Part shown: piece by piece, positions 26,519-49,910 of the stretch
How the letters are laid out: each line of letters begins with the position of its first letter
How positions within the stretch are numbered: position 1 is the first letter of the stretch
Source of the DNA: Candidatus Babeliales bacterium
Lineage (GTDB): Bacteria > Babelota > Babeliae > Babelales > RVW-14
DNA: 64,000 nucleotides
Reading direction: 5' to 3'
Assembly: GCA_041652535.1 (NCBI GenBank)
Contig: JBAZHB010000001.1
Coordinates: 2,870-66,869, forward strand
Made by a program: the position numbers and the translations under genes
The notes under the pieces: generated by a model
What the model saw: only the letters and a program-made list of their open reading frames with translations
Told to the model about the DNA's origin: nothing
Databases searched by the model: none

Positions 26519-26886
26519 TGGTGGAGGCGATGGGAGTCGAACCCATGTCCGCAATATCACGAGCGCCAAGTCCTACGTGCGTATCTCTTGATTATTCTCT
26601 TAAGCAAAAGCAAGAGCACCTGCGCCTAAGAGCCGGTTCAGTATACGGTGTTGGTTACACTCCTGGAAAAGTCTTGCCAACAAGTTCTATCTGGTTAATA
26701 CGAGTGGGTCAGCTGATAGACACGCCAACGTCACAAGAACTTAGCAAAAGCTTATTAAGCGATTGCGTAAGATTGGGCAGATGTGTCTGCACTTATTTGA
26801 TTTGACGGTTTCTTTTACGAGTTTGCCACCAAAACTCGGCACGCACTCAGTTCACGCATTATCACGTCGAGACCAAATACGCCCCC
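26519..26886 (-). ncRNA. ssrA: tmRNA (SsrA)
   Basis: The 5' end is GGGGGCGTATTTGGTCTCGACG. The 3' end is ATGGGTTCGACTCCCATCGCCTCCACCA, with an encoded CCA. The acceptor stem carries the G3:U wobble. An internal tag frame ...ADTSAQSYAIA ends in TAA TAA (26757-26752). Confidence 0.9.
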
Positions 26887-35884: not shown

Positions 35885-35896
35885 AAAAATCCCCCA
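35815..35896 (-). repeat. 5' cassette B, copy 1 (RBS plus signal-peptide coding region)
   Basis: Aligns with 36501-36580 and 37121-37199, with shared strings such as ...CATGACATGAATA...GTGTTTAA..TGTGACATAA...CCCCCAAA. Confidence 0.8.
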
Positions 35897-35924
35897 AATA
35901 TTATTTGTATAAGATCCCTAAAAA

Positions 35925-36569: not shown

Positions 36570-36580
36570 AATAACCCCCA
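36501..36580 (-). repeat. 5' cassette B, copy 2
   Basis: GCCAAAAGACATGACATGAATAAGTGTTTAACGTGTGACATAATAACCCCCAAA is nearly identical to copy 3. Confidence 0.85.
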
Positions 36581-36627
36581 AAATATTTCTCTAAAATTAT
36601 GATATTACTAGTGACTCATTAAGAGCA

Positions 36628-37188
36628 CTAATTGGTCCAATGAGCTTGCGCTTTAGCAATTGCAGCCTCGACAAAGTTTTTAAGATCTAGAAGCCTATGC
36701 TCGTTGGCATAAGCAGAAATTTTGTCATAGCAGTGCCCGACATTTCTATACATAACATCTGTGCTTACGTAACGGGCAACCGGGTAAGCGCATTGCTGCG
36801 CTTCCTTAAAGAGCGCTTGTTCATAGGTATTCATGGAAGGAGGAACAGGTGAGTTACCCAAAAAGCTTTTTAATGCAGGAACGCAATAAGTACGCATCAC
36901 ATAGAAAGTTGCCATTGCTACGATAGCTGCTGTGGCGGCTATGAGCGGTGTTTTATGCACTTTGGCCCACTTTTTCATGTGCATTACTTTGCCCGAAACG
37001 AATTTTTTCATATGATGTGCTTGAGCCAATAAGCGAATTTTCCATGAAGATATAGCTGTTTGTGGTCCCCATAGCATTTCCCTTGTTTCTCCATGCGATA
37101 TTTCCCATGGTATAGACTCACCCGCATGTAACCCAATGGTAGCAAATGCCAAAAGACATGACATGAATAGATGTTTAACGTGTGACAT
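36628..37188 (-). CDS. Small exported single-TM protein, family Y (paralog of 37205-37951) carrying the family X leader
   Basis: Start at ATG 37188 (MSHVKHLFMSCLLAFATIGLHA). TM segment TPLIAATAAIVAMATFYVM. The C-terminal domain ...YPVARYVSTDV...HCYDKISAYANEHRLLDLKNFVEAAIAKAQAHW is shared with the next gene. Confidence 0.6.
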   Translation of the reverse strand: MSHVKHLFMSCLLAFATIGLHAGESIPWEISHGETREMLWGPQTAISSWKIRLLAQAHHMKKFVSGKVMHMKKWAKVHKTPLIAATAAIVAMATFYVMRTYCVPALKSFLGNSPVPPSMNTYEQALFKEAQQCAYPVARYVSTDVMYRNVGHCYDKISAYANEHRLLDLKNFVEAAIAKAQAHWTN

Positions 37189-37199
37189 AATAACCCCCA
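37121..37199 (-). repeat. 5' cassette B, copy 3 (attached to a non-homologous mature protein)
   Basis: GCCAAAAGACATGACATGAATAGATGTTTAACGTGTGACATAATAACCCCCAAA, with 2 mismatches to copy 2 over this stretch. Confidence 0.85.
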
Positions 37200-37204
37200 A
37201 ACTC

Positions 37205-37951
37205 TTAGATTTTATGATTTAAGAGTTTTGTATTTTTCAATCCCTTATAGAACTCTAAATCCCGCCAATATTTTTTTGCCGTTTCAACCGCAGCTTCTAT
37301 TCTATCTTGCAGGTGAGCAAGCCCATATTCTTGTGCGTATTTACTTATGGAGTTGTAACATGCTTGATAACCATCATGCAAACGTCGTAGGTGTTGATGC
37401 GAACATCCATTAAGTGAATAGTCGTATTCTTTCCCATTTAGCGAGTAAGGGAAGGAGTCGGTGCTGACTTTATATGCAGCATCAACAAAACAATGATCTG
37501 GGATGCGAGCGCATGTGTCGGCCACTGCAAGTAGTTCTTCTGGTGTAAGTAGCTTTTCTGGATTGGCGCATTGTGGATTTGTATAGTGATGCATGGTTGT
37601 GGTGGTTTCATTAGCAATTGTATTAAAGAATGTGGTAGCGGTTGATGGGGGTGCGGGGGTAACAGTGTTGAAAGCGTCAATCGGTTGTGCATGTAAAGGT
37701 GTTATCTGAGAAGTATGATAATAATAGAACGCTGCGGCTGCTACCACGGCTAACGCCATCCCCCCCATCAAAATTTCTTTCTTATGATGAGTAATCCAAC
37801 TTTTAATGCCAGTTACTTTATTAAGTAGACAAGTTTTGAAGGGGTTGGCAGCAACGGATTCTTGATGTATGGGTTGTTGATCCATACAAAAAGTCGTTTG
37901 ATGATGGAATATTAAAAGTGCACATGCACCTATAAGAATGTGTTTTTTCAT
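37205..37951 (-). CDS. Small exported single-TM protein, family Y
   Basis: 248 aa. Signal peptide MKKHILIGACALLIFHHQTTFC. TM segment GGMALAVVAAAAFYYY. C-terminal domain ...AAYKVSTDS...ACYNSISKYAQEYGLAHLQDRIEAAVETAKKYW. Confidence 0.6.
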   Translation of the reverse strand: MKKHILIGACALLIFHHQTTFCMDQQPIHQESVAANPFKTCLLNKVTGIKSWITHHKKEILMGGMALAVVAAAAFYYYHTSQITPLHAQPIDAFNTVTPAPPSTATTFFNTIANETTTTMHHYTNPQCANPEKLLTPEELLAVADTCARIPDHCFVDAAYKVSTDSFPYSLNGKEYDYSLNGCSHQHLRRLHDGYQACYNSISKYAQEYGLAHLQDRIEAAVETAKKYWRDLEFYKGLKNTKLLNHKI

Positions 37952-38156
37952 GAGCCCCCCTCGGAAAAAACTAATTACTTAAAGCATCCTCTAAGTCTAT
38001 AGAATCACGCCTGAAGCGCAAACGGGTGGTGTATATTCAAATAGGAAATAATTGCATAATGAGAGGCTTGATTATCATGATCACGGCTGCTTCGAATGCG
38101 GTGCCTTGCGTCGTGTATCGAGAAGGGCAGCGGCACGGCGGGACGAACGGGAGGCC

Positions 38157-40652
38157 TTATGCAGGGGTTGGTGATTGTTGTGGTGAAGACGGAGCTGGTT
38201 GCTCAAGCGGCTTTTTAGTCGATGGGACATTTTCAGTTGTAGCGACAGCTGCTTCAGATTCTTTTTGTTCCTGTTCTATCGCCTCTTCCTGTGCTTGTTT
38301 AAGCTCCGCATGCTTTGCTTGTTGTTCTTTAATAGCCTCGCCTACCTGATAATAAGGATCATCTTGAATGCTGACGCACTTTGGTTGGCGTTTGCCATAG
38401 GTGAAGTTATCAATAGGACGTAAAATACCGCGTGCAGCATCGTCGATGCGATTTTTGATATTTTGATTGGTTGGCTTAAAGAACCAGCGCTGAATTGGAT
38501 CGCGATCGTTAATGTACGCATCGCTTTTCATAATTTGAAGTTTGGCATAATCAAGTTTGAGCTGAGTATACTCATCAGGCTCGCCTTCAAAACGTGGCTT
38601 GATAACGCTTGGACGGATAAAGACATAGATATTTTGTTCGACTTTATCTTTTTCTTTGAATCTAAATAAATTTCCAATAAGGGGAATGTCGCCAAGAATT
38701 GGGGTTTTATATACCGTTTCAAGCTGATTGCTGGTAACAAAGCCCCCAAGGCCAATGACCTCGCCTGTTCCTATCGCTGCTTTTGTTTTGATTGTTCTAT
38801 TAAGGATGGTTTTGTCAGTTTGTGCTACCTGTGTGTCAACTTCTTTAAATTGATCGAGCTGAAGATCAATATCAAGCGTGATTGTTCCGATCAAATTAAT
38901 ATGAGGAGTAAGTTTAATATCAACGGTAGCAGGAAGATCGACGGTTTTGAGTACAGGAGTTGAGACGTTTTTACTAAAATCCATTCCTCCGGTGACACGT
39001 AATGTTTTTGAAACGAGCACTTCGCAGGTTTGATGGTTGTTAGCAATAACATAAGGTTGTGAGATAATTTGAGCGTTGGTTGCTTGCAATGAGGCAATTA
39101 AAACGCCCCAAATGTTATCGGGCGTTGTTTGTGTCCCTGCTGGTCCAAATGTTGCGGATGAAGGAAAGTATTGACCGGCTGCAAAATCTTTATTGATTTG
39201 CAGAAGCGAGGCATTTGGATTAGTTGTACCATCAATGTTGTTTCTAAATACCGGCATTCCCATGAGTTGTGCAAATCCAGCATTAATATTATGTCCAAGA
39301 GAATGCCCTTTGAGATTACGCATTTGAAAACCAAGCGCTTTTGATTGATTGAGATTAACTTCAACAATCATAACTTCAAGGGCGACCTGGGGTTGCGGTT
39401 TATCAAGCTTATCAATAAAAGATGATATACGTTTCCAATCTTCACGGTTGCAGGCAACGACAAGGCGGTTTCCGTTGCCGTGTTTTGCAGCATCACTTTC
39501 TCCGCTTGTATCTGTCTCTCCTTTAATAAAGACGTCCTCAAAAACCTTATAACCACCTTCCATGACAAGAGCCTTTTCAGCGGTAGTGCCACTTGGTGGT
39601 TGGATTATTTTTTGCAACACCGGTTCAAGGTCTTGGGCGCGTATGTAGCGAAGTTCTCTGACATGAAGACGTGATTCTGCGTTATCGATAGGAACATCGA
39701 TATATTTAGCAATGAAATTTTTGATTTTATCAACGTTTTTATATGCGCCAAGCAGGATAATGGAATTGGTAATTGGCTCCGATAGAACCTTGGTTCCTGT
39801 CGCAAAATAAGCAGCTTCTTTGGGCTGAAGCGCGGAGATTCTGATGACTCGCTGTTGATCAGTTGTTGACTCGGTTCCTAATACTTCATCAAAAAGCTTT
39901 TTGACGTTATCGGCACTTGCAAATTTGAGAGGAATGACCTCAATAGCCTCGCGTAAACCACCTTCATCAAGCTCTTTAACGATGCGCATGGCAGATTTAA
40001 TGTTGAAGCTTTGGTCTTTGATGATACAAAGATTGAGGTCTTTGTTTTCAGTGATGTTTTTATCTTCAATCATTTTTGCCAAAATGGAGTGCGCCGTTTC
40101 AGCTTTTATGTTTTTAAATACGTAGATGTACCGAATAACTTGATCGCTGTGAGGCAGATTTTCAGGTTGCGTCCCACTTTCTGATGAATACAACGGAAGC
40201 GGTTCTTGTCCATTATTTTGGCTTGGTACGACGTAATAAAGGTCGCGGTTGTCTTTGGGGTCGTGTTTTTTGAGCAGCGTAAAATTATTCATTTCAAGAA
40301 GCGTGAGCAGTACGTTCCATGCGCGATCGAGAGTTAAGGGATTATGGGTTGTCAGGCTTACCTTGATGCCCTCAAGATCTTTATTGGGGATAATATTAAT
40401 ATTTTTCTGTTGGCCTAAGCAATACAGAACAGATGAAAGAGATGCATTGTCAAAATTGATGTTTGCTTCATCCAGAGCTTCTTGGTTCTCTTGAGGAGAC
40501 GCAAATGAGCCTACCTGTAAATTCTGTTGTTGAGAATTTATGGATTGTGTTGTTGGGATTTTATTTTCGGTAGCCACATCGGCGCTGCAAAAATGTACCG
40601 AAGAAAAAGCTACGAAGAATAAAAAATAAAGGTGTCTTGAGACTTTTGCCAT
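38157..40652 (-). CDS. gspD: Secretin (GspD/PilQ family), copy 2
   Basis: 831 aa. Signal peptide. N0-like NINFDNASLSSVLYCLGQQKNINIIPNKDLEGIKVSL. Secretin core PQVALEVMIVEVNLN and TPILGDIPLIGNLFRFKEKD...IYVFIRPSVIKP, followed by a roughly 190-aa C-terminal extension. Confidence 0.9.
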   Translation of the reverse strand: MAKVSRHLYFLFFVAFSSVHFCSADVATENKIPTTQSINSQQQNLQVGSFASPQENQEALDEANINFDNASLSSVLYCLGQQKNINIIPNKDLEGIKVSLTTHNPLTLDRAWNVLLTLLEMNNFTLLKKHDPKDNRDLYYVVPSQNNGQEPLPLYSSESGTQPENLPHSDQVIRYIYVFKNIKAETAHSILAKMIEDKNITENKDLNLCIIKDQSFNIKSAMRIVKELDEGGLREAIEVIPLKFASADNVKKLFDEVLGTESTTDQQRVIRISALQPKEAAYFATGTKVLSEPITNSIILLGAYKNVDKIKNFIAKYIDVPIDNAESRLHVRELRYIRAQDLEPVLQKIIQPPSGTTAEKALVMEGGYKVFEDVFIKGETDTSGESDAAKHGNGNRLVVACNREDWKRISSFIDKLDKPQPQVALEVMIVEVNLNQSKALGFQMRNLKGHSLGHNINAGFAQLMGMPVFRNNIDGTTNPNASLLQINKDFAAGQYFPSSATFGPAGTQTTPDNIWGVLIASLQATNAQIISQPYVIANNHQTCEVLVSKTLRVTGGMDFSKNVSTPVLKTVDLPATVDIKLTPHINLIGTITLDIDLQLDQFKEVDTQVAQTDKTILNRTIKTKAAIGTGEVIGLGGFVTSNQLETVYKTPILGDIPLIGNLFRFKEKDKVEQNIYVFIRPSVIKPRFEGEPDEYTQLKLDYAKLQIMKSDAYINDRDPIQRWFFKPTNQNIKNRIDDAARGILRPIDNFTYGKRQPKCVSIQDDPYYQVGEAIKEQQAKHAELKQAQEEAIEQEQKESEAAVATTENVPSTKKPLEQPAPSSPQQSPTPA

Positions 40653-40655
40653 AAG

Positions 40656-41204
40656 CTAATCCACCGGTATTTTAAGTTTTTTTGATGCTAACGTGAGATC
40701 AAAAGTTATTTTTCTATCAGGTTGTGTTCGAATTCGTAATTCCTTAATAGTAACAATATCTTTTTGTGCAAGTGCTGAAAGAATAGCAATAAGATTTTTG
40801 GTTGTTTGATTTTTGAATGTTGCAGGAAGGATAACTTCGTCAAAACGATCATTAACCGGCTCTATATGCGGTTCCCAGCCTGCTTCGGGTGCAATATTTT
40901 GTTCCCGACAAAATTGTTCAAAAAAACTTGCCATCGAAAAGCCTTTATTCTTTTCGATAATGTCGCGAATATGTTGCTCTTCAAGCATCATCTTGCGATT
41001 TTGACCAATTATTGTTGCCGATTTTTCTGAAAGCTTGCCTAAATTAATAGTGTATTGAATAAGAGAAGCTTTCTTTTGGTGAATAATATAAATAAAAAGT
41101 CCCGTAGCAAGCGCAATGCCACCGATTGATAAAAGAAGATATTGTTGAAATTTTTTGCGTGGTAGATCTTGAAGATAGGTAGCAAATTTATTTATTGCAT
41201 CCAT
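40656..41204 (-). CDS. GspM/PilO-like bitopic inner-membrane assembly-platform protein
   Basis: 182 aa. Short cytoplasmic N-terminus, one TM (YLLLSIGGIALATGLFIYII), a coiled segment and a roughly 100-aa C-terminal domain. It sits between the GspL-like gene and a secretin with 3-nt gaps on both sides. Confidence 0.55.
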   Translation of the reverse strand: MDAINKFATYLQDLPRKKFQQYLLLSIGGIALATGLFIYIIHQKKASLIQYTINLGKLSEKSATIIGQNRKMMLEEQHIRDIIEKNKGFSMASFFEQFCREQNIAPEAGWEPHIEPVNDRFDEVILPATFKNQTTKNLIAILSALAQKDIVTIKELRIRTQPDRKITFDLTLASKKLKIPVD

Positions 41205-41207
41205 AAT

Positions 41208-42926
41208 TTAAACTTCTTTTAGTATCAATTTTGCCGTGAAATCAACACCACCATCGGGAGCAGGTGTTGGCTCAATTGCTTCAACAAGTCTGAGTAAATT
41301 TGATTCCTTAAAACGACTTTCAAAAGGGGCAAACGCTGTAAAATGATCCCCATTTTTGGATTTAAAGAGAGCATCGATTTCAATTTTTGGTGTTCCGATA
41401 TCCGATTTATCAGCATCGTTTTCAGTACGGCCCCATTGTTTTTCTAAAGTGGTAAAGGTTGCTTCTTTGATGGTTACATCAAACTGTTTTTTATCAATAA
41501 TGCGGGTGATTTCAAGAAGAAGCTCAAGCGGTTCCATTGGCTTTTGAATGAGGGGGGCCCATGTTTCATATTTTTGTTGTACCACGCGTTCTGCTTCCTT
41601 GATGACCCCAACAAAAGTGCTCTTTGAAGCGATTTGGGCTGCTGTTAAAATATTATCGCTGCGTAATCGTTCAATTTCTTTGGTTTCGAATGCATTTATA
41701 CGCGAGGAGAGGCGAGCAATATCTAGATAGCCATTGATACCAATTGCAGTAAATAATGCGATTGCTAATATGCCGGCAGTTACAATTTGTTGAGAGGCCA
41801 GATTTTTGTGGCGGAAAGCAAATTGCTTACGACGGAGATCAAAATTTTGTTGATCTGGCGATGGAAGCGCAACGCCGAGCGCTGTTGAAAATTGCGCCCA
41901 ATTACTTATCTGTTCACTAATTTTGTCTTTAAATGTTGATCCTGCAAAAAGCTTTCTGCAGTTAAAAAATTCACACGGTATCTGCATGGTGTCACTGCAA
42001 AAGGTCATGAGATCGGGAATCTGGTTCCCTTGGCCGGTAAAAAGAACTTTACTAACGCCATCATAAAATCCGAGTTTAAGACTAAACGAATTAAGCGTGA
42101 ATTGTATCTCATTTAAGAGAAGAACAAAGTGCTTTTGTACAATACGCGTAAGCGTTTCATCGCCAAGTGATCGTATGCCGCTGGACGTTAATTTTTTAAG
42201 AATTTCTTCTGGTGATACTAATGTTTCTTCGCCAATCAGTTTAAGAACCGTTGTAAGGCCTCGTGGAATGTATCGCGTAAGACGTAATTGCCCCTCTTGT
42301 ACTAATGCGATGCGTGTAGTGTGTGCATCAAATTCAACTAAGGCGCTTGCATTGGGAAGTGTGCGATATTCAGGAATTTGTTGATATAAACTGTACAGCG
42401 CAAAAAGATCAATGGTGATTGCTGAAGGATCGATACCGGCCTTTTCATAAATCGAAAGATGCGTTTGAAGATCTTGCGTTCTTACTGCGGCAACCAAAAT
42501 TTGTGTTGTTTTTTGATCGGATTGTTTCTTGGTGATAATGAAGTCAACAATTGCTTCGTTAATAGAAAAGGGGAGCATTGTTTCAATTTCATAATCAAGA
42601 ACCATGCGAATTTTTTCAGGATCGCTGAATTGTAGTTGAAGCTCTTTAAATACAACGATTGAAGCAGGAATGCAGGCGCGGATAAGGTCATAAGATTTTA
42701 TACCGGACATCATTTGTTTAAGGGCTTGCGCAGTACGATCGGCAAGATCTTGTTCGCTGCCAGGTACAAGAGGTTCTTGTTTCAGATGTTCAACAACATT
42801 TTTGCCATGTTTGGCGTGAACGAGCGCAAGCGTAACATGCGTATCATGACATGCGATACCAATAACACGTTGTGCAAGAATTCTGTGCGTCCCAAGCATT
42901 TCAGGTAAAAATATTTCCTTTATCAT
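41208..42926 (-). CDS. PilM-PilN fusion / GspL-like assembly-platform protein
   Basis: 572 aa. The roughly 380-aa cytoplasmic domain has actin-like/PilM-type character (VIGIACHDTHVTLALV..., AITIDLFALYSLY, ALVEFDAHTTRIALV). One TM (IVTAGILAIALFTAIGINGYL) and a roughly 170-aa periplasmic domain. It has an ATGA overlap with secretin 1. Confidence 0.65.
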   Translation of the reverse strand: MIKEIFLPEMLGTHRILAQRVIGIACHDTHVTLALVHAKHGKNVVEHLKQEPLVPGSEQDLADRTAQALKQMMSGIKSYDLIRACIPASIVVFKELQLQFSDPEKIRMVLDYEIETMLPFSINEAIVDFIITKKQSDQKTTQILVAAVRTQDLQTHLSIYEKAGIDPSAITIDLFALYSLYQQIPEYRTLPNASALVEFDAHTTRIALVQEGQLRLTRYIPRGLTTVLKLIGEETLVSPEEILKKLTSSGIRSLGDETLTRIVQKHFVLLLNEIQFTLNSFSLKLGFYDGVSKVLFTGQGNQIPDLMTFCSDTMQIPCEFFNCRKLFAGSTFKDKISEQISNWAQFSTALGVALPSPDQQNFDLRRKQFAFRHKNLASQQIVTAGILAIALFTAIGINGYLDIARLSSRINAFETKEIERLRSDNILTAAQIASKSTFVGVIKEAERVVQQKYETWAPLIQKPMEPLELLLEITRIIDKKQFDVTIKEATFTTLEKQWGRTENDADKSDIGTPKIEIDALFKSKNGDHFTAFAPFESRFKESNLLRLVEAIEPTPAPDGGVDFTAKLILKEV

Positions 42927-45601
42927 GCAGGCGCCTTCGTTGTTTCAGTTTTGCCCGATAAAAATTCTTTCAACACGTTGCGCTTTTCTGTTGTTATCTG
43001 TTCAGCTGTTGGTGATGTTGACGGTTTTGCATCTGGCGATGGTCTTGGTGTTGGTTGTGGTTGGTTTTTTTGAGGTGCAATTGATAAAGGATTGGTTGAA
43101 AGAAGATCTTTAAGCTTTTGACGTCGTTCTGAAAGGTCTTGTTCATTTACCGTAACAGCAGGTTGCAAAGGTACAGAAACTTCATTTTTTGTTATGGCCA
43201 AAGTTTGCGGTTGTTCTGGTTGTGGCGTTGCAGGAAGCGCAGCTTGTTGAAATTGTTCTACCGAAAGTGTAGGTGATTTTTGTATGTCTGCTACGTTTTC
43301 TTCTTCCTTGGTTGAAAGCGCTCGATAATAAGGATCATTCCTAAGATCAACCGTAGTTGGTTGATAGCGTGCATTTGCAAAGTCGATAACCTTATGTGAA
43401 TAATTTTCTGGTCGGTTATCTGGTGGAAGTTTAGGGTTAAAGAACCAGTTATGCATTGGATCAAGCGTGTGTTTAGTTTCTACAGCTTGTTCGATATCTT
43501 CAGTGGCCTGATGTAATTTCATCTTAGTATAAAGCTGCATACCTGGAGTTTGGCGAGGTTTGATGATAGTAGGTGACATGAAAACGAAAATATATTGTTT
43601 TGTGGTTCGGCGTTGTTGACGCTTAAAGAACCATCCAAGAACCGGAATGTCGCCAAGTATTGGAGTTTTTGCTTTAAATTCATCAACACGCGTTTGTACA
43701 AAGCCGCCAAGAACTAAAACTTGTCCATCTGCCACGCTGACATTGGTTTTTACCTTTCGCTCATTTCTGGCGTTATTGGCAGAAGATGGATCAAATTCAT
43801 TTATATCAACGGTAACATCAAGTCGAACAATACCATCGAGGTTAATCTGTGGAACCAGTGAAATATTGGTAATTGCGCCCAAAGAGGTAAAACCCTGAAT
43901 GGTGCCCGAGTTGGCAGAATCTTGTACAACTTGGCGCGTTTCACCTAATGCCAATGTGGCGGTTGTTTTATTGGCAGCGATAATAAAAGGTTGCGATAAA
44001 ATTGAAGTATTTGCTTCTTGGTTAATAGATTCAAGAAAAGCCCAGACGTTTTTTTGTGGGCCAAAGGTTAACACCGTTTGTCCAACTTGATTGGTAATTT
44101 GGTCAAGCATGTTACCAAGAATACTGATAGGGGTTCCGCCTGTATCGAATGCTGGTTGATATTCAAGGAAAGGTGTTGTGGTTGGCAACGAGCCATGTGC
44201 ATCAATGTTCTTGCCAAGGACTCCATGATGCTTGTTGCGTATCATGCCGCCAAGTTCTTTGAGATGATCGGCACCAATGCTAACAATGAAAATTTCAAGC
44301 GCTACTTGCGGCTGTGGTTTATCAAGATCATCAAGTGTCTTTTTTAATAATTTCCAATCCTGTTTATCAACACAGGAAATAAGTAATCGATTGCCATCGG
44401 TATCAACTTGAAACGTCATATTTCTAAAATATTTTACGCCACCGCGAATAGAACCATATTTGCCTGCTGCTTGCCCTGATGTGCTATCGGGAGTTTTGGT
44501 GACTTCAGTAAGAATTTCGGCAGCTTGTTTAGCGTCAATATGTTGAAGCTCATATACGTGAAGAGGCGATGCTGCTGATTCAAGGTCGGTATCGATGTGT
44601 TTAGTCATGAAATCGATGATCTTTTCGATCGATTTATTATTGCCCATAAGAATCAGCGAATTGGTTCTTTCTTCGGCAATGACTTTGGTTGTTGAAGAAA
44701 AATATTTTTTACCGCCTTCTGCTGCTTTACCAAGTAGTCGTGCCAATGGGTTGTTGTCAGTTGAGTCTTTGATTAAAGAATCAAGAAGCGTTTTTGCATC
44801 AGTTGCGTTGACGCGTTTAAGACGGAGAACGGTGACCGTTTCAGGTAAGCCCATTTGATCAAGCTCGGTCAAAAGTTTTGCTGCAGCTTTAATGTTGTAT
44901 GATTTGTCGGCCAGGATGAAAGCATTCATATCAGCTTGATCGTGAATGGCACTTTGAGCACTGAGCATGCTTTCAACAATTGGTCGTACTGAAGTTACTT
45001 GGATATTGGTTAAAAACATTACATAGCGGATGGTTTCATCGCTATCCGGTAGCTGTGAATAAGGGGTATTAATGAAGGCAGGTAACGGCTGATTGAGTTT
45101 TTTATCTTTAGGAAGGATGACATGGATGTCGCCCTTCTGGACGATTGCAAAGCCGGCCATATCAAGAACCGTTTGCGAAATATTCCATGCACCATCTACA
45201 GAAAGTGGTTCGCGAATAGTAAGTGAGATTTTTGAGCCTTCTATACTCTTATCGGGAATGATATTGATTTTTTTAAGTTCAGCGAGCCAATTAGCAAAAC
45301 TTAAAAGATCTCCATTTTCAAAATTCAAATAAATGTCTTTTTTCTCTGTGCTGTTATCAGTTTTCTCGGTTGTTGGTTGTCCTGGCACCATTGGTGCTGG
45401 AAGTTGAGGCGCAATACTGGTTGTTTGAAGAATTTGATCAATAGGTTGTTGAGCAGTTGCTATAGGTGCGACTACTGCTGCAGGTAGTGGCACTGCCATG
45501 ATGGGAGTTTGTTCTTCTGTTGAAAACCCTATCGTAGGAGTGCACATGCATAATACGAAAGGAAGCGCGATAATGTAACGTAAGTTGAAAAACTTTCTCA
45601 T
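42923..45601 (-). CDS. gspD: Secretin (GspD family), copy 1
   Basis: 892 aa. Signal peptide. N0 domain DIYLNFENGDLLSFANWLAELKKINIIPDKSIEGSKISL. Core PQVALEIFIVSIGAD and TPILGDIPVLGWFFKRQQRR...IFVFMSPTIIKP, followed by a roughly 220-aa P/Q-rich C-terminal extension. Confidence 0.92.
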   Translation of the reverse strand: MRKFFNLRYIIALPFVLCMCTPTIGFSTEEQTPIMAVPLPAAVVAPIATAQQPIDQILQTTSIAPQLPAPMVPGQPTTEKTDNSTEKKDIYLNFENGDLLSFANWLAELKKINIIPDKSIEGSKISLTIREPLSVDGAWNISQTVLDMAGFAIVQKGDIHVILPKDKKLNQPLPAFINTPYSQLPDSDETIRYVMFLTNIQVTSVRPIVESMLSAQSAIHDQADMNAFILADKSYNIKAAAKLLTELDQMGLPETVTVLRLKRVNATDAKTLLDSLIKDSTDNNPLARLLGKAAEGGKKYFSSTTKVIAEERTNSLILMGNNKSIEKIIDFMTKHIDTDLESAASPLHVYELQHIDAKQAAEILTEVTKTPDSTSGQAAGKYGSIRGGVKYFRNMTFQVDTDGNRLLISCVDKQDWKLLKKTLDDLDKPQPQVALEIFIVSIGADHLKELGGMIRNKHHGVLGKNIDAHGSLPTTTPFLEYQPAFDTGGTPISILGNMLDQITNQVGQTVLTFGPQKNVWAFLESINQEANTSILSQPFIIAANKTTATLALGETRQVVQDSANSGTIQGFTSLGAITNISLVPQINLDGIVRLDVTVDINEFDPSSANNARNERKVKTNVSVADGQVLVLGGFVQTRVDEFKAKTPILGDIPVLGWFFKRQQRRTTKQYIFVFMSPTIIKPRQTPGMQLYTKMKLHQATEDIEQAVETKHTLDPMHNWFFNPKLPPDNRPENYSHKVIDFANARYQPTTVDLRNDPYYRALSTKEEENVADIQKSPTLSVEQFQQAALPATPQPEQPQTLAITKNEVSVPLQPAVTVNEQDLSERRQKLKDLLSTNPLSIAPQKNQPQPTPRPSPDAKPSTSPTAEQITTEKRNVLKEFLSGKTETTKAPA

Positions 45602-45625
45602 AGCCTTTCTTCCCTGGTCAACCCT

Positions 45626-46753
45626 TTATTGGCGATTTTGGAAGCGTCGTTGTAAATTTTCAAGTATTCGTTGTCGTATAGCCATCATCGATTGTTGATG
45701 CTTTTCGTTGTCGGGATGGAGCCGATTAAAATCTCGTAACGTCTGTTCACGTTGTTGCACACGATTCATTGGCAACTGTTCTGTGGGCTTTGCAGGCGCT
45801 GCAAGCCCTGGAAATACGGTACGTCGAGGGGGCTCAAGTTTAGCAAGTCTGTACGATAAAGAAATATCTTTATCAGCACGTTTAAGATCAAGCTTTATGG
45901 AGCTGCCAAGAGGAAGCTGTGTTATATCTTCATAAATTTTTAATCTATTTTCTTGTTCGACGGTGGATATTCCATTAATTGCAGTAATGATATCATTTTC
46001 AGCCAAGCCGAGCGATGTTGCGATGAGTTCTTTTTCAGGTTTCCCTAAGCGTAGACCAATTGGTTTGCCTTCGCGATAGGTAGCGCCTATTAAACTAATT
46101 TCTTCAATCAGGTGGCCGAGCGTTTGAATTTCTTTTGCAAATCGGTGTGGATCAATTTCAAATGTTTGGTCGTCGATTTTTTTGACCGTGTATTTCCAGC
46201 GATCGGCAAAATGTTGTTCGTCGGGTACATCGTCTTTGCGTAAATAAAATGTTTCTTGTTGCCCGTTGGAACGTAGGAGGATCACACGGTTATTGGCGAT
46301 CTTAATAATCTGAGCGTCTTTAATTTTTTCACCGACGCGATAAATGCTTTCTGCATTGGTTTCATCTGCGATCATGGCAACATTTTTTGATTCATCACCA
46401 CCAGCAATAATGCCATGTATGGTAATGGAGAGTGGTGCTATAAATTCGACTTTTGGACTTTCAGGAATTGGTGGTGTTAATGGTATTGGGGGTTCAGGGA
46501 TTGGAGAAATAAGACTTTGCTTTGATGGCTTTGATTCATCTTGGAAAAAGGTGCCAAAAATATCGTCTTGATAGATTTCATTCCACAGGGCTTGTGCCTC
46601 AGCGGTCTCTTTTTTTTTTTCGGGTTCGGTTGGTTGAGGGATTTGATGTGTAGATAATAATGGAGCATCTTGGCGTACAAGTTGATAACCAAGTAACGAG
46701 GCTATAAAAATTGCCAGGAGTGCGCTGTTGGCTAACCACAGGTCCTGTTTCAT
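45626..46753 (-). CDS. gspC: Type II secretion system protein C-like (TM + HR/PilP-like domain + PDZ)
   Basis: 375 aa. N-terminal TM LANSALLAIFIASLLGY and a Pro-rich linker. HR-like LSITIHGIIAGGDESKNVAMIADETNAESIYRVGEKIKDAQIIKIANNRVILL. PDZ-like GLRLGKPEKELIATSLGLAENDIITAINGIS...GSSIKLDLKR. Confidence 0.75.
   Translation of the reverse strand: MKQDLWLANSALLAIFIASLLGYQLVRQDAPLLSTHQIPQPTEPEKKKETAEAQALWNEIYQDDIFGTFFQDESKPSKQSLISPIPEPPIPLTPPIPESPKVEFIAPLSITIHGIIAGGDESKNVAMIADETNAESIYRVGEKIKDAQIIKIANNRVILLRSNGQQETFYLRKDDVPDEQHFADRWKYTVKKIDDQTFEIDPHRFAKEIQTLGHLIEEISLIGATYREGKPIGLRLGKPEKELIATSLGLAENDIITAINGISTVEQENRLKIYEDITQLPLGSSIKLDLKRADKDISLSYRLAKLEPPRRTVFPGLAAPAKPTEQLPMNRVQQREQTLRDFNRLHPDNEKHQQSMMAIRQRILENLQRRFQNRQ
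46610..46620 (-). repeat. A11 homopolymer (T11 on the + strand) inside the gspC-like CDS
   Basis: Read directly. It encodes E-K-K-K-E (GAA AAA AAA AAA GAG) near codon 45. Confidence 0.95.
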
Positions 46754-46779
46754 GGCTTAAAATCCCTTCATAGACTACG

Positions 46780-46809
46780 AAGATACTTTCTCCGTAGCCG
46801 AACTGTCAA
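46780..46809 (-). promoter_or_regulatory. Candidate sigma70-type promoter upstream of gspC-like
   Basis: On the minus strand there is a perfect TTGACA (46809-46804), an 18-nt spacer and TATCTT (46785-46780). A GAAGGGA RBS precedes the ATG at 46753. No TGGCAC-N5-TTGC element was seen. Confidence 0.35.
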
Positions 46810-46841
46810 GACAGGAGATTATAAAACTTAAAAAGATTCTA

Positions 46842-47834
46842 TTATGGCGCTGGGATTGTGTGTAAAATTTTTTGAATAATAAGATCCGTTGAAACATTTT
46901 CAGCCTCCGCTTCATAGGTAAGAAGAATACGGTGACGAAGAATGTCATATGCAACAGCTTTAACATCATCCGGCATAACAAAATGTCGCTTTCTTAAAAA
47001 TGCGTGAGCTTTGGATGCTGCAGTAAGTGCAAGCGTTGCTCGCGGAGATGCTCCATATTCGATGAAAGGAGCAATATCACCCAGCTTATAATCTTTAGGG
47101 TTACGTGTAGCAAAAACAATATGCAAAATATAATCAGTGACTTTATTATCAATATAAACTTCTGACACAAGTTTTTGACTTGTTGTTATTACTTCTTTAT
47201 CAAGCACCGTATAAACATCTTTAGGTGAAAAAACTTTAGAAATGATCTCAAGTTCTTCTTGCATCTTGGGGTAGGTGACGATGAGCTTGAACATAAATCG
47301 GTCAACTTGTGCTTCGGGAAGGCGATAAGTTCCCTCTTGATCAATGGGGTTTTGGGTTGCGAGTACAAAAAATGGTTCATCAAGCTTATAGGTTGTATCG
47401 CCGATGGTAACCTGGTGCTCCTGCATTGCCTCAAGAAGTGCCGATTGTACTTTTGCCGGTGCTCGGTTGATTTCGTCTGCAAGAATCATATTGGCAAAAA
47501 TTGGCCCTTTTTTTACTTGAAAATCTTGATTCTTTGGATTGTATACCAATGTTCCAACCAAATCTGCAGGAAGAAGGTCGGGGGTGAATTGGATACGTTG
47601 AAAAGAAAGTCCAATTGCTTTGGCAATTGTTTTTACTAATGTAGTTTTTGCAAGGCCAGGAACCCCTTCAAGTAAAATGTGACCATTGCAAAGCAATCCA
47701 ATAAGAACCCGTTCAACCGCGTAATCTTGGCCAACAATGGCTTTTTTTATTTCATCTTTGAGCGCAAACCATTTAAGACTTTTATCTTTGATGTGTTCAT
47801 TAAGATAAGAGGATGTTGGAGTTTCCATTTCCAT
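46842..47834 (-). CDS. MoxR-family AAA+ ATPase
   Basis: 330 aa. Walker A LLEGVPGLAKTTLVK. Walker B/sensor region ILADEINRAPAKVQSALLEAMQEHQVTI. The typical MoxR C-terminus is present. Confidence 0.9.
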   Translation of the reverse strand: MEMETPTSSYLNEHIKDKSLKWFALKDEIKKAIVGQDYAVERVLIGLLCNGHILLEGVPGLAKTTLVKTIAKAIGLSFQRIQFTPDLLPADLVGTLVYNPKNQDFQVKKGPIFANMILADEINRAPAKVQSALLEAMQEHQVTIGDTTYKLDEPFFVLATQNPIDQEGTYRLPEAQVDRFMFKLIVTYPKMQEELEIISKVFSPKDVYTVLDKEVITTSQKLVSEVYIDNKVTDYILHIVFATRNPKDYKLGDIAPFIEYGASPRATLALTAASKAHAFLRKRHFVMPDDVKAVAYDILRHRILLTYEAEAENVSTDLIIQKILHTIPAP

Positions 47835-47863
47835 GGGGGAAGCCCTCTTTATTAAAATTATTT

Positions 47864-49135
47864 TTAATGGCTGATATTGAGTTCTGCCATTTTAGCATGA
47901 AGTGTTGCTAATGGCATCTGGAGAAAATCAGCAAGTTGTGCGGTATCGTAACGATGCAATTTAAGCATGTGATGCAAGTATCGTTGTTGAAAAGAATGCG
48001 TTGCATCATCAAGAGAACTAAACCGTGTATATGCCTGTTGTTCTAATTGATCGGTTGGTTGTGATGGCATAAGTGTACAGAAATCTGAAGCTTGAATAGT
48101 TTTATGTGTTGTTCCCAATGCTCCTACGACAACATCAATACATGTTTGTAGTTGGGCAACATCGCCTTTCCATTCGAAGTTGCGTAAGAATCGTAGCGCG
48201 CAGGAGGTGAGTGTTACGGATGTTCCATATTTTTGATTGGCTCTGCTCAAAAAATGTTCGACAAGAAGCGGAATATCATAGCGACGCTTGATGAGAGGGG
48301 GAATTTCTAATGAGGATGCATGGAGTAAGCAAAAGAGAGAGCGATTGAAGGTTCCATTTTTGACGCGTGCAAAAAGATTGAGCGAGCTTGAGGCTATAAA
48401 CTTTTGATAAGGTCGTTCCGTTGCAAGATATTCAACAACATCGTTTTGAAGTTTGCTATCAAGTTCATGAATATTTTTAAAAAAGATCGATCCATGATGA
48501 TCAGCAAGATGCGGTGGTAATTGGCGGAGTGTTGCGCATGAAAGTGTCATAAATGAACGAGCATCAAAATCGTTTTTATGATGAATGTAGCGTGCAAACA
48601 AAGTTTTACCGGATCCTGGATTGCCATAAATAAGCAAGGGAACTTTAAGTTGTGCAACAAGATTGGCATGATGCATAAGTTCGCAAAAAAGAGCGCTGGC
48701 GCCAATTATGTTGCTGGAAAATGAGGATTGATTTTGTTGTTGCTGAATTAGAGGGCGAGATTGAGCTTTTTTAAGAAAAGAAATTTTGTTTAAAATCTCA
48801 TCAAGGTTAAGTGGCTTTTCGATAAAATCAAAAGCGCCCTTCTGAATTGCTTCAATGGCAATTGGTATAGTTCCATAGCCTGAAATCATAATTACTTTTT
48901 GTGCTGGGTATTCACGTTTAATGCGTTCAAGAATGGCAATGCCATTATGAGGTGGCATAAAGATATCAATAAGGACAATGTCGGGAAGTAGTTCACCGAT
49001 TTTATCAAGCGCCTTACTGGCGTCTGCTAACGTTTCAACTCTATACGCTTCGTCTTCAAGTGCTTCTTTGAGCGTTTCAAGAATGGCAACTTCATCGTCA
49101 ATAATAAGAAGAAGCGGTTGTTCAGTTGTATTCAT
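47864..49135 (-). CDS. NtrC-family response regulator (REC + degenerate AAA+ + Fis-type HTH)
   Basis: Start at ATG 49135 (MNTTEQPLLLIIDDEV). REC domain with IVLIDIFMP. Walker A is GNPGSGKT, but there is no GAFTGA loop and Walker B reads GSIFFKNIHEL. C-terminal HTH YDTAQLADFLQMPLATLHAKMAELNI. Confidence 0.8.
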   Translation of the reverse strand: MNTTEQPLLLIIDDEVAILETLKEALEDEAYRVETLADASKALDKIGELLPDIVLIDIFMPPHNGIAILERIKREYPAQKVIMISGYGTIPIAIEAIQKGAFDFIEKPLNLDEILNKISFLKKAQSRPLIQQQQNQSSFSSNIIGASALFCELMHHANLVAQLKVPLLIYGNPGSGKTLFARYIHHKNDFDARSFMTLSCATLRQLPPHLADHHGSIFFKNIHELDSKLQNDVVEYLATERPYQKFIASSSLNLFARVKNGTFNRSLFCLLHASSLEIPPLIKRRYDIPLLVEHFLSRANQKYGTSVTLTSCALRFLRNFEWKGDVAQLQTCIDVVVGALGTTHKTIQASDFCTLMPSQPTDQLEQQAYTRFSSLDDATHSFQQRYLHHMLKLHRYDTAQLADFLQMPLATLHAKMAELNISH

Positions 49136-49157
49136 GGCACTCGCAATATATAAAATT

Positions 49158-49910
49158 TTAGACAAAACCGATTTGTTTGATTGGGCCTTCAGGAAGCCCT
49201 CTGATGAATTGGCGAATATAAGGGTTGTCGCAATCCCATATTGTGTTTGCCGGTCCCTTGTAAACAATTTTACCTTCATGCAACATGGCAACATGACTTG
49301 CGTATTTAAAAATTTCTACATCATGCGAAATAACGATAGAGGTAAGTTTTTGTTCGTCGTGAGTTTTTTTGATGAGTTCATGAATAAGGCGTACCGTGAT
49401 GGGGTCAAGACCTGTTGTTGGCTCATCGTAAATAAGAATCTTGGGACTGAGCATCAAAGTTCTTGCCAATCCAACCCTCTTTTTCATACCGCCTGAAAGT
49501 TCATCAGGAAATTTATCAAGAACATCTTCAGCCAGTCCAACGCTTTTAAGCTTTTCGATGACGAGCGGTCTTACTGTTGCAATTTCTGCGCTGTCCTCAA
49601 GGAGTGTAATACCAACGTTTTCAAGTACATTGAGCGAATCGAGCAATGCGGCAAATTGAAAAACGTAGCCACATTTGTGAAATATGGTTTGACGTTCTTT
49701 GCCTTTAAGTTGAGTAACGTCCTGATCATCGATAATTACTGAGCCCGAATCAGGTTGAATGAGCCCAATCATCTGCTTGAGGAGTACTGACTTGCCTTCG
49801 CCGGATCGTCCGATGATTGCCAAAAACTCACCATCCTCAACAGTCAGGTCGAGGCCCTTGGTAATTGCTTTGTCGCCAAACGACTTGTGAAGATCTATTA
49901 ATTTAATCAT
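49158..49910 (-). CDS. mlaF: ABC transporter ATP-binding protein, MlaF-like
   Basis: Walker A GRSGEGKSVLLK, signature LSGGMKKRVGLAR and Walker B LIYDEPTTGLDP. It overlaps the mlaE-like permease gene by 4 nt. Confidence 0.85.
   Translation of the reverse strand: MIKLIDLHKSFGDKAITKGLDLTVEDGEFLAIIGRSGEGKSVLLKQMIGLIQPDSGSVIIDDQDVTQLKGKERQTIFHKCGYVFQFAALLDSLNVLENVGITLLEDSAEIATVRPLVIEKLKSVGLAEDVLDKFPDELSGGMKKRVGLARTLMLSPKILIYDEPTTGLDPITVRLIHELIKKTHDEQKLTSIVISHDVEIFKYASHVAMLHEGKIVYKGPANTIWDCDNPYIRQFIRGLPEGPIKQIGFV

What the first reader, a model, noticed from the sequence alone, without database searches (positions are those of the whole stretch)
38157..46753. Dual-secretin T2SS/T4P-like envelope module: gspC - secretin - pilMN/gspL-like - gspM/pilO-like - secretin
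Five minus-strand genes are packed as one operon, with junctions of a 24-nt gap, an ATGA overlap, a 3-nt gap and a 3-nt gap. The first is a GspC-like protein (TM, HR/PilP-like domain, PDZ). The second is an 892-aa secretin. The third is a 572-aa actin-like, TM and periplasmic-domain protein resembling a PilM-PilN fusion or GspL. The fourth is a 182-aa bitopic GspM/PilO-like protein. The fifth is a second 831-aa secretin. Both secretins have their own signal peptide, an N0 domain and an intact secretin core (PQVALE..., TPILGDIP..G). Two full secretins bracketing the inner-membrane platform genes in one transcription unit is unusual, because canonical T2SS and T4P operons encode one. The window contains no GspE/PilB ATPase, GspF/PilC, prepilin peptidase, or any ORF with a prepilin G-FTLIE leader. 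This could mean a hetero-oligomeric or two-channel outer-membrane complex served by one platform. It could also be a split system whose motor and pseudopilus are encoded elsewhere.
Basis: partly seen in the sequence, partly recalled or inferred. Interest (0 to 1): 0.8.

Follow-up and report, generated by a model that had tools for sequence, protein, structure and literature searches.

The report
Dependentiae two-secretin secretion-machine operon
This is the outer-membrane and scaffold half of the only known secretion/pilus machine of Dependentiae (TM6) parasites, and across the sampled phylum it carries two old, equally constrained copies of the outer-membrane channel protein sharing one scaffold, a layout not known from studied bacteria and of unknown purpose.

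Summary
Five minus-strand genes (38157-46753) encode GspC, secretin A, a PilM-PilN fusion with GspL topology, a GspM/PilO-like protein and secretin B, with exactly the stated junctions. The window comes from a Candidatus Babeliales (Dependentiae/TM6) MAG.

The layout is not a local oddity. In 32 of 32 GTDB species loci where both slots lie on the contig, both secretins are present in the same order. Only one copy is frameshifted.

Both secretins are GspD-class. They form one Dependentiae clade with two ancient paralogue families, and both are under similar purifying selection. One deep-branching MAG has four secretins in the same operon frame.

An operon-specific promoter (TTGACA-N18-TATCTT) precedes gspC in about 30 species. 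No motor, platform, peptidase or pseudopilin gene lies within 10 kb of the module in any locus, so the system is split.

Yeoh et al. 2015 already reported two gspD copies and no pilQ in all seven TM6 genomes they compared and left the function open. The gene count is therefore known. The operon architecture, paralogue history, promoter and four-secretin variant appear not to have been described.

Whether the two secretins form two channels on one platform (my preferred reading) or one mixed ring remains untested.

The parts
46780..46809 (-). Operon promoter: TTGACA, an 18-nt non-conserved spacer, then TATCTT, about 27 nt upstream of the gspC ATG.
   Evidence: It is the best sigma70-like site in 37000-49500 (10/12 matches). 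The exact pattern occurs once in the window (0.04 expected) and exactly once in each of 27 loci, always upstream of gspC. With up to one mismatch, 30 of 31 hits in 781 kb are this site. The alignment shows invariant hexamers and a variable spacer.
45626..46753 (-). GspC-like protein: N-terminal TM helix, HR (PilP-like) secretin-docking domain at about 100-176, and a PDZ domain at about 215-310.
   Evidence: Pfam T2SSC scores 40.2 bits against a cut-off of 27, and PDZ_6 scores a weak 19.5 bits. NCBIfam GspC_delta scores 85.9 bits, below its cut-off of 150. The family profile hits the OutC HR domain in the solved T2SS complex 6hcg_e (5.6e-9), GspC 7oio, DegP/DegQ PDZ domains (1e-9), and more weakly the PulC/EpsC PDZ domains (1e-3 to 2e-2).
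42923..45601 (-). Secretin A (892 aa): GspD-class, with signal peptide, linker, N0, N1-N3, secretin core, S-like region, a conserved C-terminal extension ending in DPYY, and a low-complexity tail.
   Evidence: Pfam finds N0, Secretin_N and Secretin. TIGR02517 GspD scores 270.7 bits against PilQ at 130.5. It aligns full-length to the GspD structures 5zdh, 5wln and 5wq7. The A family is monophyletic in 200/200 bootstraps.
41208..42926 (-). PilM-PilN fusion with GspL topology (572 aa): full actin-like PilM domain (1-355), TM helix and coiled coil (374-460), and a periplasmic alpha-beta-beta-alpha-beta-beta domain (466-569).
   Evidence: Pfam PilM_2 scores 77.5 bits and T2SSL 29.3 bits. The AF2 model has pLDDT 85. 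Foldseek gives TM 0.69-0.78 to PilM and 0.58-0.62 to the EpsL/GspL cytoplasmic domain. Its start overlaps the secretin A stop by 4 nt in 21 of 24 loci.
40656..41204 (-). GspM/PilO-like bitopic protein (182 aa): TM helix, long coiled coil, and a duplicated alpha-beta-beta domain.
   Evidence: It has no Pfam hit on its own. The AF2 model has pLDDT 66. Foldseek matches PilO 3jc8_O (2e-4), PilO 2rjz (TM 0.61) and EpsM 1uv7 (TM 0.67-0.69). Nineteen of 73 family members hit Pfam T2SSM, best 8e-5. The family has 415 representatives at 50% identity.
38157..40652 (-). Secretin B (831 aa): GspD-class paralogue of secretin A (33% identity), with the same domain order and the same conserved C-terminal extension.
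   Evidence: Pfam finds N0, Secretin_N and Secretin. TIGR02517 scores 287.6 bits against PilQ at 142.4. It aligns full-length to GspD structures. The A-versus-B BLASTP alignment gives 33% identity over 763 aa, E=2e-124. The B family is monophyletic in 192/200 bootstraps.
46842..47834 (-). MoxR-type AAA+ ATPase. It is a conserved upstream neighbour that lies outside the gspC promoter, and whether it belongs to the system is uncertain.
   Evidence: Pfam AAA_3 matches at 4e-67. It lies directly upstream of gspC in most loci but is absent from that position in the L002/L035, L037 and L038 lineages.
47864..49294 (-). NtrX-like response regulator. It is a conserved upstream neighbour and only a speculative candidate regulator. 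Its true start is probably at Met54 of the ORF.
   Evidence: Pfam finds a receiver domain plus a degenerate sigma54-interaction AAA+ domain. The best NCBIfam hit is NtrX. It has Walker A GNPGSGK but no GAFTGA motif. It is syntenic in most loci.

Best explanation
This operon encodes the outer-membrane and alignment half of the single type II secretion / type IV pilus-like machine of Dependentiae. It is transcribed from its own conserved promoter. Its products are a GspC (HR + PDZ) that docks secretin N0 domains, a PilM-PilN fusion equivalent to GspL, a GspM/PilO partner, and two GspD-class secretins. The secretins arose by a duplication before the sampled Dependentiae radiated, and both have been kept ever since.

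The ATPase, the GspF/PilC platform protein, the prepilin peptidase and the (pseudo)pilins are encoded elsewhere in the genome.

Shown here: gene identities, phylum-wide synteny, paralogue history, purifying selection on both copies, the promoter, and the absence of motor genes nearby.

Inferred: both secretins are functional and non-redundant. Most likely each forms its own homo-oligomeric outer-membrane channel that docks, through its conserved N0 domain, on the same GspC/PilMN/GspM platform. That would give one inner-membrane machine two kinds of outlet, for example one for secreted host effectors and one for a pilus-like fibre or another substrate class.
For: Synteny: in 32 of 32 GTDB species loci with both slots on the contig, both secretins are present in the same order; 7 further loci are cut by contig ends.

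Phylogeny: all Dependentiae secretins form one clade (200/200). The A family (200/200) and B family (192/200) are each monophyletic, so the duplication is older than the sampled radiation.

Selection: dN/dS is 0.06-0.11 for all five genes. The two secretins score 0.158 and 0.156 in the unsaturated L015/L016 pair.

Shared partner: N0, the GspC-docking domain, is the part most similar between paralogues, at 47% against 26-40% elsewhere.

Operon structure: junctions are tight and conserved, and the promoter is operon-specific.

Split system: there is no GspE/F/G-K/O gene within 10 kb in any locus.

Literature: two gspD copies and no pilQ in all seven TM6 genomes compared (PMC4776705). The T2SS is the only secretion system in Babela, which also has Tfp genes (PMC4378268). 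Type IV pilus proteins may use a derived pulD channel in Chromulinavorax (PMC6561590).

From my own knowledge, not tested here: paralogous secretins in studied bacteria form separate homomultimers.
Against: No result here separates two homomeric channels from a mixed ring.

Universal co-retention and strict co-transcription of both copies fit mutual dependence at least as well. So does the tandem re-duplication of both copies in one lineage.

I could not count the ATPases and pilin sets in any Dependentiae genome. Whether there are two filament systems for two channels to serve is therefore unknown.

The outgroups in the tree are proteobacterial or phage sequences only, and the tree is neighbour-joining. 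The GspM/PilO model has only moderate confidence (pLDDT 66).
Confidence: 0.5

Rival explanations
1. The two secretins co-assemble into one obligate hetero-oligomeric channel, either as a mixed ring or as two stacked rings. They serve a single machine, and each paralogue has become dependent on the other.
For: Both copies are retained in 32 of 32 species of a fast-evolving, genome-reduced phylum. They are co-transcribed from one promoter with tight, translationally coupled junctions. Constraint on the two copies is the same. In L042 both paralogues duplicated again and all four stayed intact, the pattern expected from ratchet-like elaboration of ring subunits. Both share the same conserved C-terminal extension. 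Variant protomers of one secretin can form mixed multimers in vitro (PMC4604470).
Against: To my knowledge no natural hetero-oligomeric secretin has been described, and my searches found none. Solved GspD rings have 15 chains per entry, which does not suit strict alternation. The two paralogues are only 33% identical. No interface prediction could be run.
Confidence: 0.3
2. One paralogue no longer acts as a channel. Instead it serves as a structural or assembly factor for the other, for example as a periplasmic ring or as a pilotin-like or peptidoglycan-spanning scaffold.
For: The first part of the core (residues 433-526 of A) is the least conserved region, both between paralogues (26% identity) and within the B family. 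No pilotin, GspA/B or GspS-like gene is seen in the operon.
Against: Both copies keep complete Secretin domains with similar Pfam scores (109 and 101 bits). Both align end to end with GspD structures. Ninety-seven columns are conserved with the same residue in both families, against 12 fixed differences.
Confidence: 0.12
3. Secretin B belongs to a separate type IV pilus locus that merely lies next to a T2SS gspC-gspD pair, or one copy is a redundant or decaying duplicate.
For: Secretin B sits in the position PilQ holds in pilMNOPQ clusters. The middle protein is more PilM-like than GspL-like. One locus, L041, has a frameshifted secretin B.
Against: The genes downstream of secretin B differ between species and are never T4P genes. 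Secretin B is GspD-class, with no AMIN domain, and is sister to secretin A rather than to PilQ. There is one promoter, gaps are 3-30 nt, and the order is conserved in 32 of 32 loci. dN/dS is about 0.06-0.16 for both copies.
Confidence: 0.03

Closest known systems
Canonical proteobacterial T2SS (gspC-D-E-F-G-H-I-J-K-L-M-O, e.g. E. coli K-12 Gsp, Klebsiella Pul, Vibrio Eps)
   Same: It has a GspC with HR and PDZ domains encoded next to a GspD-class secretin with N0-N3, core and S-like region. It has a bitopic protein with GspL topology followed by a GspM-like partner. The order C-D-L-M is the canonical order with E to K removed.
   Different: There are two secretin genes, or four in L042, instead of one. 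The motor, platform, pseudopilins and peptidase are not in the cluster or within 10 kb of it. The GspL-like protein carries a full PilM-type actin domain. All proteins score below the NCBIfam equivalog cut-offs. Both secretins carry an extra conserved C-terminal extension of about 80 aa.
Type IVa pilus alignment complex with secretin (pilM-N-O-P-Q, e.g. P. aeruginosa, M. xanthus; loci L052/L053 here)
   Same: A PilM-type cytoplasmic actin-like domain, PilN/PilO-type bitopic proteins and then a secretin occur in that order. The PilP-like HR domain is supplied by GspC.
   Different: PilM and PilN are fused. There is no separate PilP. The secretin in the PilQ slot is GspD-class, has no AMIN domains, and is sister to the other GspD paralogue. 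No pilin, PilB, PilC or PilT gene is nearby.
The 'two gspD, no pilQ' observation for candidate phylum TM6 (Yeoh et al. 2015, PMC4776705), and the 'derived pulD channel' remark for Chromulinavorax (Deeg et al. 2019, PMC6561590)
   Same: It is the same genes in the same phylum. Those authors already proposed that one GspD copy may substitute for PilQ.
   Different: The passages I read give gene counts only. They do not give the single-operon layout, the shared platform, the age of the duplication, the equal constraint on both copies, the operon promoter or the four-secretin variant.
Akkermansia Amuc_1098-1102 pilus-like cluster (PilM-like Amuc_1101, PilO-like Amuc_1100, secretin Amuc_1098)
   Same: There are weak NCBIfam hits of the platform protein to the Amuc_1101 family and of both secretins to the Amuc_1098 family. 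The 182-aa model has a weak fold match to Amuc_1100.
   Different: All scores are far below the family cut-offs, so this is only a remote resemblance and not membership. As far as I know that cluster has a single secretin, which I did not check here.

Membership tests
T2SS secretin GspD | C-terminal Secretin domain (PF00263) preceded by N0 and repeated Secretin_N (N1-N3) domains | tested here: met
   Both proteins have it. Secretin scores 109.2 and 101.5 bits, Secretin_N 71.6 and 57.1 bits, and N0 38.3 and 27.9 bits, all above the cut-offs. Both align full-length to GspD structures 5zdh, 5wq7 and 5wq8.
T2SS secretin GspD | Score at or above the NCBIfam TIGR02517 equivalog cut-off (351 bits) | tested here: not met
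   The scores are 270.7 and 287.6 bits. GspD is the best-matching family, but both proteins are too divergent to be called equivalogs.
T2SS secretin GspD | Works with a GspE ATPase, GspF and a GspG-K pseudopilus | not testable with these tools
   None of these genes is in the window or within 10 kb of the module in 42 loci. The rest of the genomes could not be read. The literature reports T2SS and Tfp components in TM6 core genomes.
Type IV pilus secretin PilQ | PilQ-type architecture (AMIN domains, N0, one N1-like domain, core) and a score at or above the TIGR02515 cut-off (284 bits) | tested here: not met
   The scores are 130.5 and 142.4 bits. Pfam finds no AMIN domain. PilQ structures match only N3 and the core, at 45-65 bits. 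Both paralogues group with each other and not with PilQ or HofQ.
GspC | N-terminal TM helix, HR domain (PF11356) and C-terminal PDZ domain, encoded next to gspD | tested here: met
   T2SSC scores 40.2 bits against a cut-off of 27. PDZ is weak in the window protein (19.5 bits) but above cut-off in the L042 orthologue (31.8 bits). The profile hits the OutC HR domain (5.6e-9) and DegP/DegQ PDZ domains (1e-9), with weaker hits to the PulC/EpsC PDZ domains. NCBIfam GspC_delta scores 85.9 bits, below its cut-off of 150.
GspL / PilM-PilN | Cytoplasmic actin-like domain, one TM helix and a periplasmic ferredoxin-like domain in a single chain (GspL), or PilM and PilN as separate proteins | tested here: met
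   The GspL topology is present in the AF2 model (pLDDT 85). PilM_2 (77.5 bits) and T2SSL (29.3 bits) are both above cut-off. The fold is closer to PilM (TM 0.69-0.78) than to the EpsL cytoplasmic domain (TM 0.58-0.62). The NCBIfam pilM and gspL cut-offs are not reached.
GspM / PilO | Bitopic protein with a coiled coil and a duplicated alpha-beta-beta periplasmic domain, encoded after gspL or pilN | tested here: met
   The model shows this topology (pLDDT 66). The top fold hits are PilO and EpsM, with probability 1.00. Nineteen of 73 family members hit T2SSM, best 8e-5. Profile searches against PDB sequences were not significant.
Complete co-localised T2SS or T4aP gene cluster | Secretin, ATPase, platform protein and major (pseudo)pilin encoded together | tested here: not met
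   Only C, D, L-like, M-like and a second D are clustered. There are no E/F/G-K/O hits in the window or in any flank.

The most novel reading that the evidence does not exclude
Dependentiae build an outer-membrane secretin channel from two paralogous subunits, or four in one lineage. This would be a natural hetero-oligomeric or two-ring secretin on a single GspC/PilMN/GspM platform. The paralogues would have become mutually dependent before the sampled phylum radiated.
Probability: 0.3. Interest if true: 0.85.

Novelty: new variant of a known kind. Interest (0 to 1): 0.6.

Why it matters
Secretins are the outer-membrane gates of T2SS, T4P, T3SS and filamentous-phage export. In every studied system one gene makes one homo-oligomeric ring for one inner-membrane platform.

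Here a whole phylum of obligate intracellular parasites has kept two ancient secretin paralogues on one platform for its only reported secretion apparatus. Up to 44% of encoded proteins in one cultured member carry signal peptides (PMC6561590).

If the two form separate outlets, this shows how a reduced genome runs two export routes from one machine. If they co-assemble, it would be the first natural hetero-oligomeric secretin.

Cultured members exist (Babela, Vermiphilus, Chromulinavorax). The open question raised in 2015 can therefore be tested directly by cryo-ET and biochemistry. The conserved promoter gives a handle for finding the rest of the regulon.

Tried and rejected
- **Sigma-54 control.** The upstream regulator lacks GAFTGA, and there is no -24/-12 element before gspC. 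Rejected.
- **Reaching the rest of the window's 83-kb contig to look for motor genes.** Four look-ups failed or returned an unrelated short contig.
- **Independent assemblies of the four-secretin lineage.** The metagenome scan returned only two unrelated canonical pilMNOPQ loci.
- **Sequence-profile detection of the 182-aa family against PDB.** Not significant with 27 or with 73 sequences. Structure and Pfam member scans were needed instead.
- **Literature precedents for two secretins in one system or for heteromeric secretins.** Nothing relevant beyond in-vitro mixed PulD variants. Supplementary tables of Yeoh et al. are not held.
- **A regulon for the promoter.** No near-match lies upstream of any other gene in 781 kb.
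- **First tree attempt.** It timed out and was redone with a numpy neighbour-joining implementation.
- **MoxR as an operon member.** It lies upstream of the promoter and is missing from that position in some lineages, so I list it only as a neighbour.

Full report
**1. Observation**

The five minus-strand ORFs exist exactly as described: 45626-46753 (375 aa), 42923-45601 (892 aa), 41208-42926 (572 aa), 40656-41204 (182 aa) and 38157-40652 (831 aa). The junctions are a 24-nt gap, a 4-nt overlap, a 3-nt gap and a 3-nt gap.

Pfam and NCBIfam assign domains as follows:
- The first protein has T2SSC plus a weak PDZ.
- Both large proteins have N0 + Secretin_N + Secretin.
- The 572-aa protein has PilM_2 + T2SSL.
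- The 182-aa protein has no hit.

The window has no prepilin leader or GspE-type Walker box. tblastn with E. coli K-12 GspE, F, G-K and O finds nothing. The other large ORFs tested in the window are housekeeping: NusA, IF-2, LpxK, BamA, ATP synthase a/c, PPDK, PNPase, RpoC, TIM, SecG, MlaEF and MreB.

**2. Source organism and prior knowledge**

Secretin B is 100% identical to a protein from a Candidatus Babeliales MAG. Its top 120 homologues are 40-81% identical, and every source name among them points to Dependentiae/TM6.

Three papers bear on the finding:
- Yeoh et al. 2015 reported that pilQ is absent and two gspD copies are present in all seven TM6 genomes compared. They suggested one copy may replace PilQ and called this an open question (PMC4776705).
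- The Babela paper calls the T2SS the only secretion system in the genome and notes Tfp assembly genes (PMC4378268).
- The Chromulinavorax paper mentions type IV pilus proteins that might use a derived pulD channel (PMC6561590).

The gene count is therefore known. In the passages I read, the operon layout is not described.

**3. Conservation of the arrangement**

I scanned the GTDB species representatives with the platform protein and obtained 39 loci. All carry this Dependentiae-type module, although some MAG titles say 'uncultured Pseudomonadota'.

BLASTP of the window proteins against the locus ORFs shows GspC, secretin A, PilMN, the 182-aa protein and secretin B on one strand and in one order. 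This holds in every locus that reaches far enough. Thirty-two of 32 loci with both secretin slots on the contig have both, and 7 more are cut by contig ends.

- Only L041 has a damaged copy, a frameshift with a small deletion in secretin B.
- The stop of secretin A overlaps the start of PilMN by 4 nt in 21 of 24 loci. The other junctions have medians of 3-17 nt.
- Genes downstream of secretin B differ between species.
- GspE/F/G-K/O are absent from all flanks.

Secretin B is therefore the last gene of this unit, not part of a neighbouring pilus locus. The machine's motor and fibre genes are always encoded elsewhere.

**4. The two secretins**

They are 33% identical over 763 aa. Both score best against GspD (270.7 and 287.6 bits) and about half as well against PilQ. 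Both align from N0 to the end of the core with solved GspD rings, whereas PilQ structures match only N3 and the core.

I built a neighbour-joining tree from 714 columns with 200 bootstraps. It contained 33 A sequences, 29 B sequences, the four L042 sequences and eight outgroups (E. coli, Cupriavidus, Marinovum and Acinetobacter GspD; HofQ; two PilQ; IKe pIV). The results:
- All Dependentiae secretins form one clade (200/200).
- The A family (200/200) and the B family (192/200) are each monophyletic.

The duplication is thus older than the sampled radiation, and neither copy is an acquired PilQ. The caveats are that the outgroups are proteobacterial or phage sequences and the method is simple.

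Both copies are under similar purifying selection. dN/dS is 0.10 and 0.06 against L004, where dS is saturated. It is 0.158 and 0.156 in the closer L015/L016 pair.

Both are conserved from N0 through the core and share a conserved extension of about 80 aa ending in DPYY, followed by unconserved low-complexity tails. Between paralogues, N0 is the most similar domain (47% identity against 26-40% elsewhere). Ninety-seven columns are fixed to the same residue in both families, against 12 fixed differences.

**5. The platform proteins**

- **GspC.** The family profile hits the HR domain of OutC in the solved T2SS complex 6hcg (5.6e-9) and DegP/DegQ PDZ domains (1e-9), with weaker hits to the PulC and EpsC PDZ domains.
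- **The 572-aa protein.** It models confidently (pLDDT 85) as an actin-like domain, a TM helix with a coiled coil, and an alpha-beta-beta-alpha-beta-beta domain. The cytoplasmic part is closer to full PilM (TM 0.69-0.78) than to the shorter GspL/EpsL domain (TM 0.58-0.62). It is a PilM-PilN fusion with GspL topology, which explains why sources name it either PilM or GspL.
- **The 182-aa protein.** It models with moderate confidence (pLDDT 66) as a TM helix, a coiled coil and a duplicated alpha-beta-beta unit. Its best fold matches are PilO and EpsM. The family has 415 representatives at 50% identity, and 19 of 73 members hit Pfam T2SSM, far more than any other family.

The operon is thus C-D-L-M-D in T2SS terms. 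The GspC and both GspD proteins are T2SS-type, while the L-like protein is T4P-flavoured. It can also be read as a gspC-gspD pair joined to a pilM/N-pilO-(no pilP)-secretin cassette. Canonical unfused pilMNOPQ clusters with one secretin (L052, L053) provide the contrast.

**6. Transcription**

The best sigma70-like site in 12.5 kb lies in the MoxR-GspC gap. Its hexamers, TTGACA and TATCTT, are separated by 18 nt. They are essentially invariant across species whose proteins are only 35-50% identical, while the spacer varies freely.

The exact pattern occurs once in the window (0.04 expected) and exactly once in each of 27 loci, always before gspC. With one mismatch allowed, 30 of 31 hits in 781 kb are this site. 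gspC therefore starts a dedicated transcription unit with an operon-specific promoter.

The syntenic upstream regulator is NtrX-like. It has a Walker A motif but no GAFTGA loop, and there is no -24/-12 element, so sigma-54 control is rejected. MoxR and this regulator are conserved neighbours but lie outside the promoter.

**7. A four-secretin variant**

The most divergent locus, L042 (Babeliales MAG_BO39), reads GspC, secretin, secretin, PilMN, a 186-aa protein, secretin, secretin. All four secretins are full length with Secretin and Secretin_N domains.

The two upstream copies are sisters, and so are the two downstream copies (200/200 each). Both pairs are old duplicates, with dN 0.40-0.44 and dS 1.2-1.4. 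This rests on a single MAG, and a metagenome scan found no second assembly of that lineage.

**8. Mechanism**

*Shown:* this is the conserved envelope half of a split T2SS/T4P-type machine, with two ancient, intact, equally constrained GspD paralogues and one set of GspC, L-like and M-like proteins.

*Inferred:* both secretins are needed and are not redundant.

I favour two homomeric channels that dock through N0 on one shared platform (about 0.5). My reasons are that known paralogous secretins form separate rings (my own knowledge, not tested here), that N0 is the domain best conserved between the copies, and that the phylum is reported to have both T2SS-like and pilus-like components but no PilQ.

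The main rival is a mixed or two-ring channel (about 0.3). Universal co-retention, strict co-transcription and the second round of duplication in L042 fit it well. Nothing I could run separates the two readings.

A non-channel role for one copy is less likely (about 0.12). Adjacency of two independent systems, or a decaying duplicate, is essentially excluded.

**9. Novelty and score**

The presence of two gspD genes in TM6 has been published since 2015 as an unexplained gene count. As far as I could find, the following were not previously described:
- the single-operon architecture with one shared platform;
- the age and symmetry of the paralogues;
- the operon promoter;
- the split from the motor genes in about 40 species;
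- the four-secretin variant.

It is a new variant of a known kind of machine. It has a real, testable open question and cultured organisms to test it in. Interest is 0.6.

Noticed in passing
window 19321-20253 (-), next to the ATP synthase a subunit at 20250-21191: The ATP synthase c-subunit ORF is 310 aa long and contains four fused c hairpins. Pfam finds four ATP-synt_C stretches, the repeat period is about 80 aa, and each hairpin keeps the conserved Glu. Bacterial F-type c subunits normally have a single hairpin.
   Followed up: partly
window 35225-37951 (-), directly downstream of secretin B: Four small proteins (219, 218, 190 and 248 aa) have no Pfam hits. Three of them share a near-identical signal-peptide-like N-terminus (MSHVKHLFMSCLLA...). 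They fall into two paralogous pairs. They are not found downstream of the operon in other species, and they could be lineage-specific secreted or membrane proteins.
   Followed up: partly
L042 5696-16811 (Candidatus Babeliales MAG_BO39, JARLHJ010000034): This locus has four full-length secretins in the same operon frame: two tandem copies in the A slot and two in the B slot. Each pair is an old duplicate. It is seen in one MAG only, and no independent assembly was found.
   Followed up: yes
L041 12278-14714: Secretin B is split by a frameshift with a deletion of about 10 aa at the N3/core junction. It is the only disrupted secretin among 32 loci, and it could be an assembly error or a real pseudogene.
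   Followed up: partly
window 47864-49294 (-): The 'sigma-54 response regulator' upstream of the operon has a Walker A motif but no GAFTGA loop, which makes it NtrX-like. Its ORF start is probably over-called by about 53 codons, where it overlaps the MlaF-like ABC gene. It is syntenic with the operon in most species.
   Followed up: partly
window 38157-40652 (residues ~686-767 of B) and 42923-45601 (residues ~682-759 of A): Both secretin families share a conserved extension of about 80 aa after the Pfam Secretin domain (motifs DPxxxWFFxP and DPYY), followed by unconserved Pro/Gln-rich tails. Only its first part aligns to the GspD S-domain, and the function of the rest is unknown.
   Followed up: partly
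window 5483-6532 (+) and 13890-16781 (-): LpxK (lipid A 4'-kinase) and a long BamA (963 aa) are present. The Chromulinavorax paper reports no LPS biosynthesis genes in that Dependentiae genome, so envelope chemistry may differ within the phylum.
   Followed up: no
loci L005, L010, L013, L015, L020, L022, L024, L025, L028, L031, L033, L036, L039, L041: These GTDB representative MAGs carry the Dependentiae-type module, but their record titles say 'uncultured Pseudomonadota'. This is probably a taxonomic mislabel.
   Followed up: no
window 46842-47834 (-): A MoxR-type AAA+ ATPase (64-89% identical among most species, 60% in L042) lies directly upstream of the operon promoter in most species. No von Willebrand factor A (VWA) partner gene was identified beside it. 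A role in assembly of the machine is possible but unsupported.
   Followed up: partly
window 26519-26886 (-): A tmRNA gene with the tag peptide ADTSAQSYAIA was found by both ARAGORN and Rfam.
   Followed up: no
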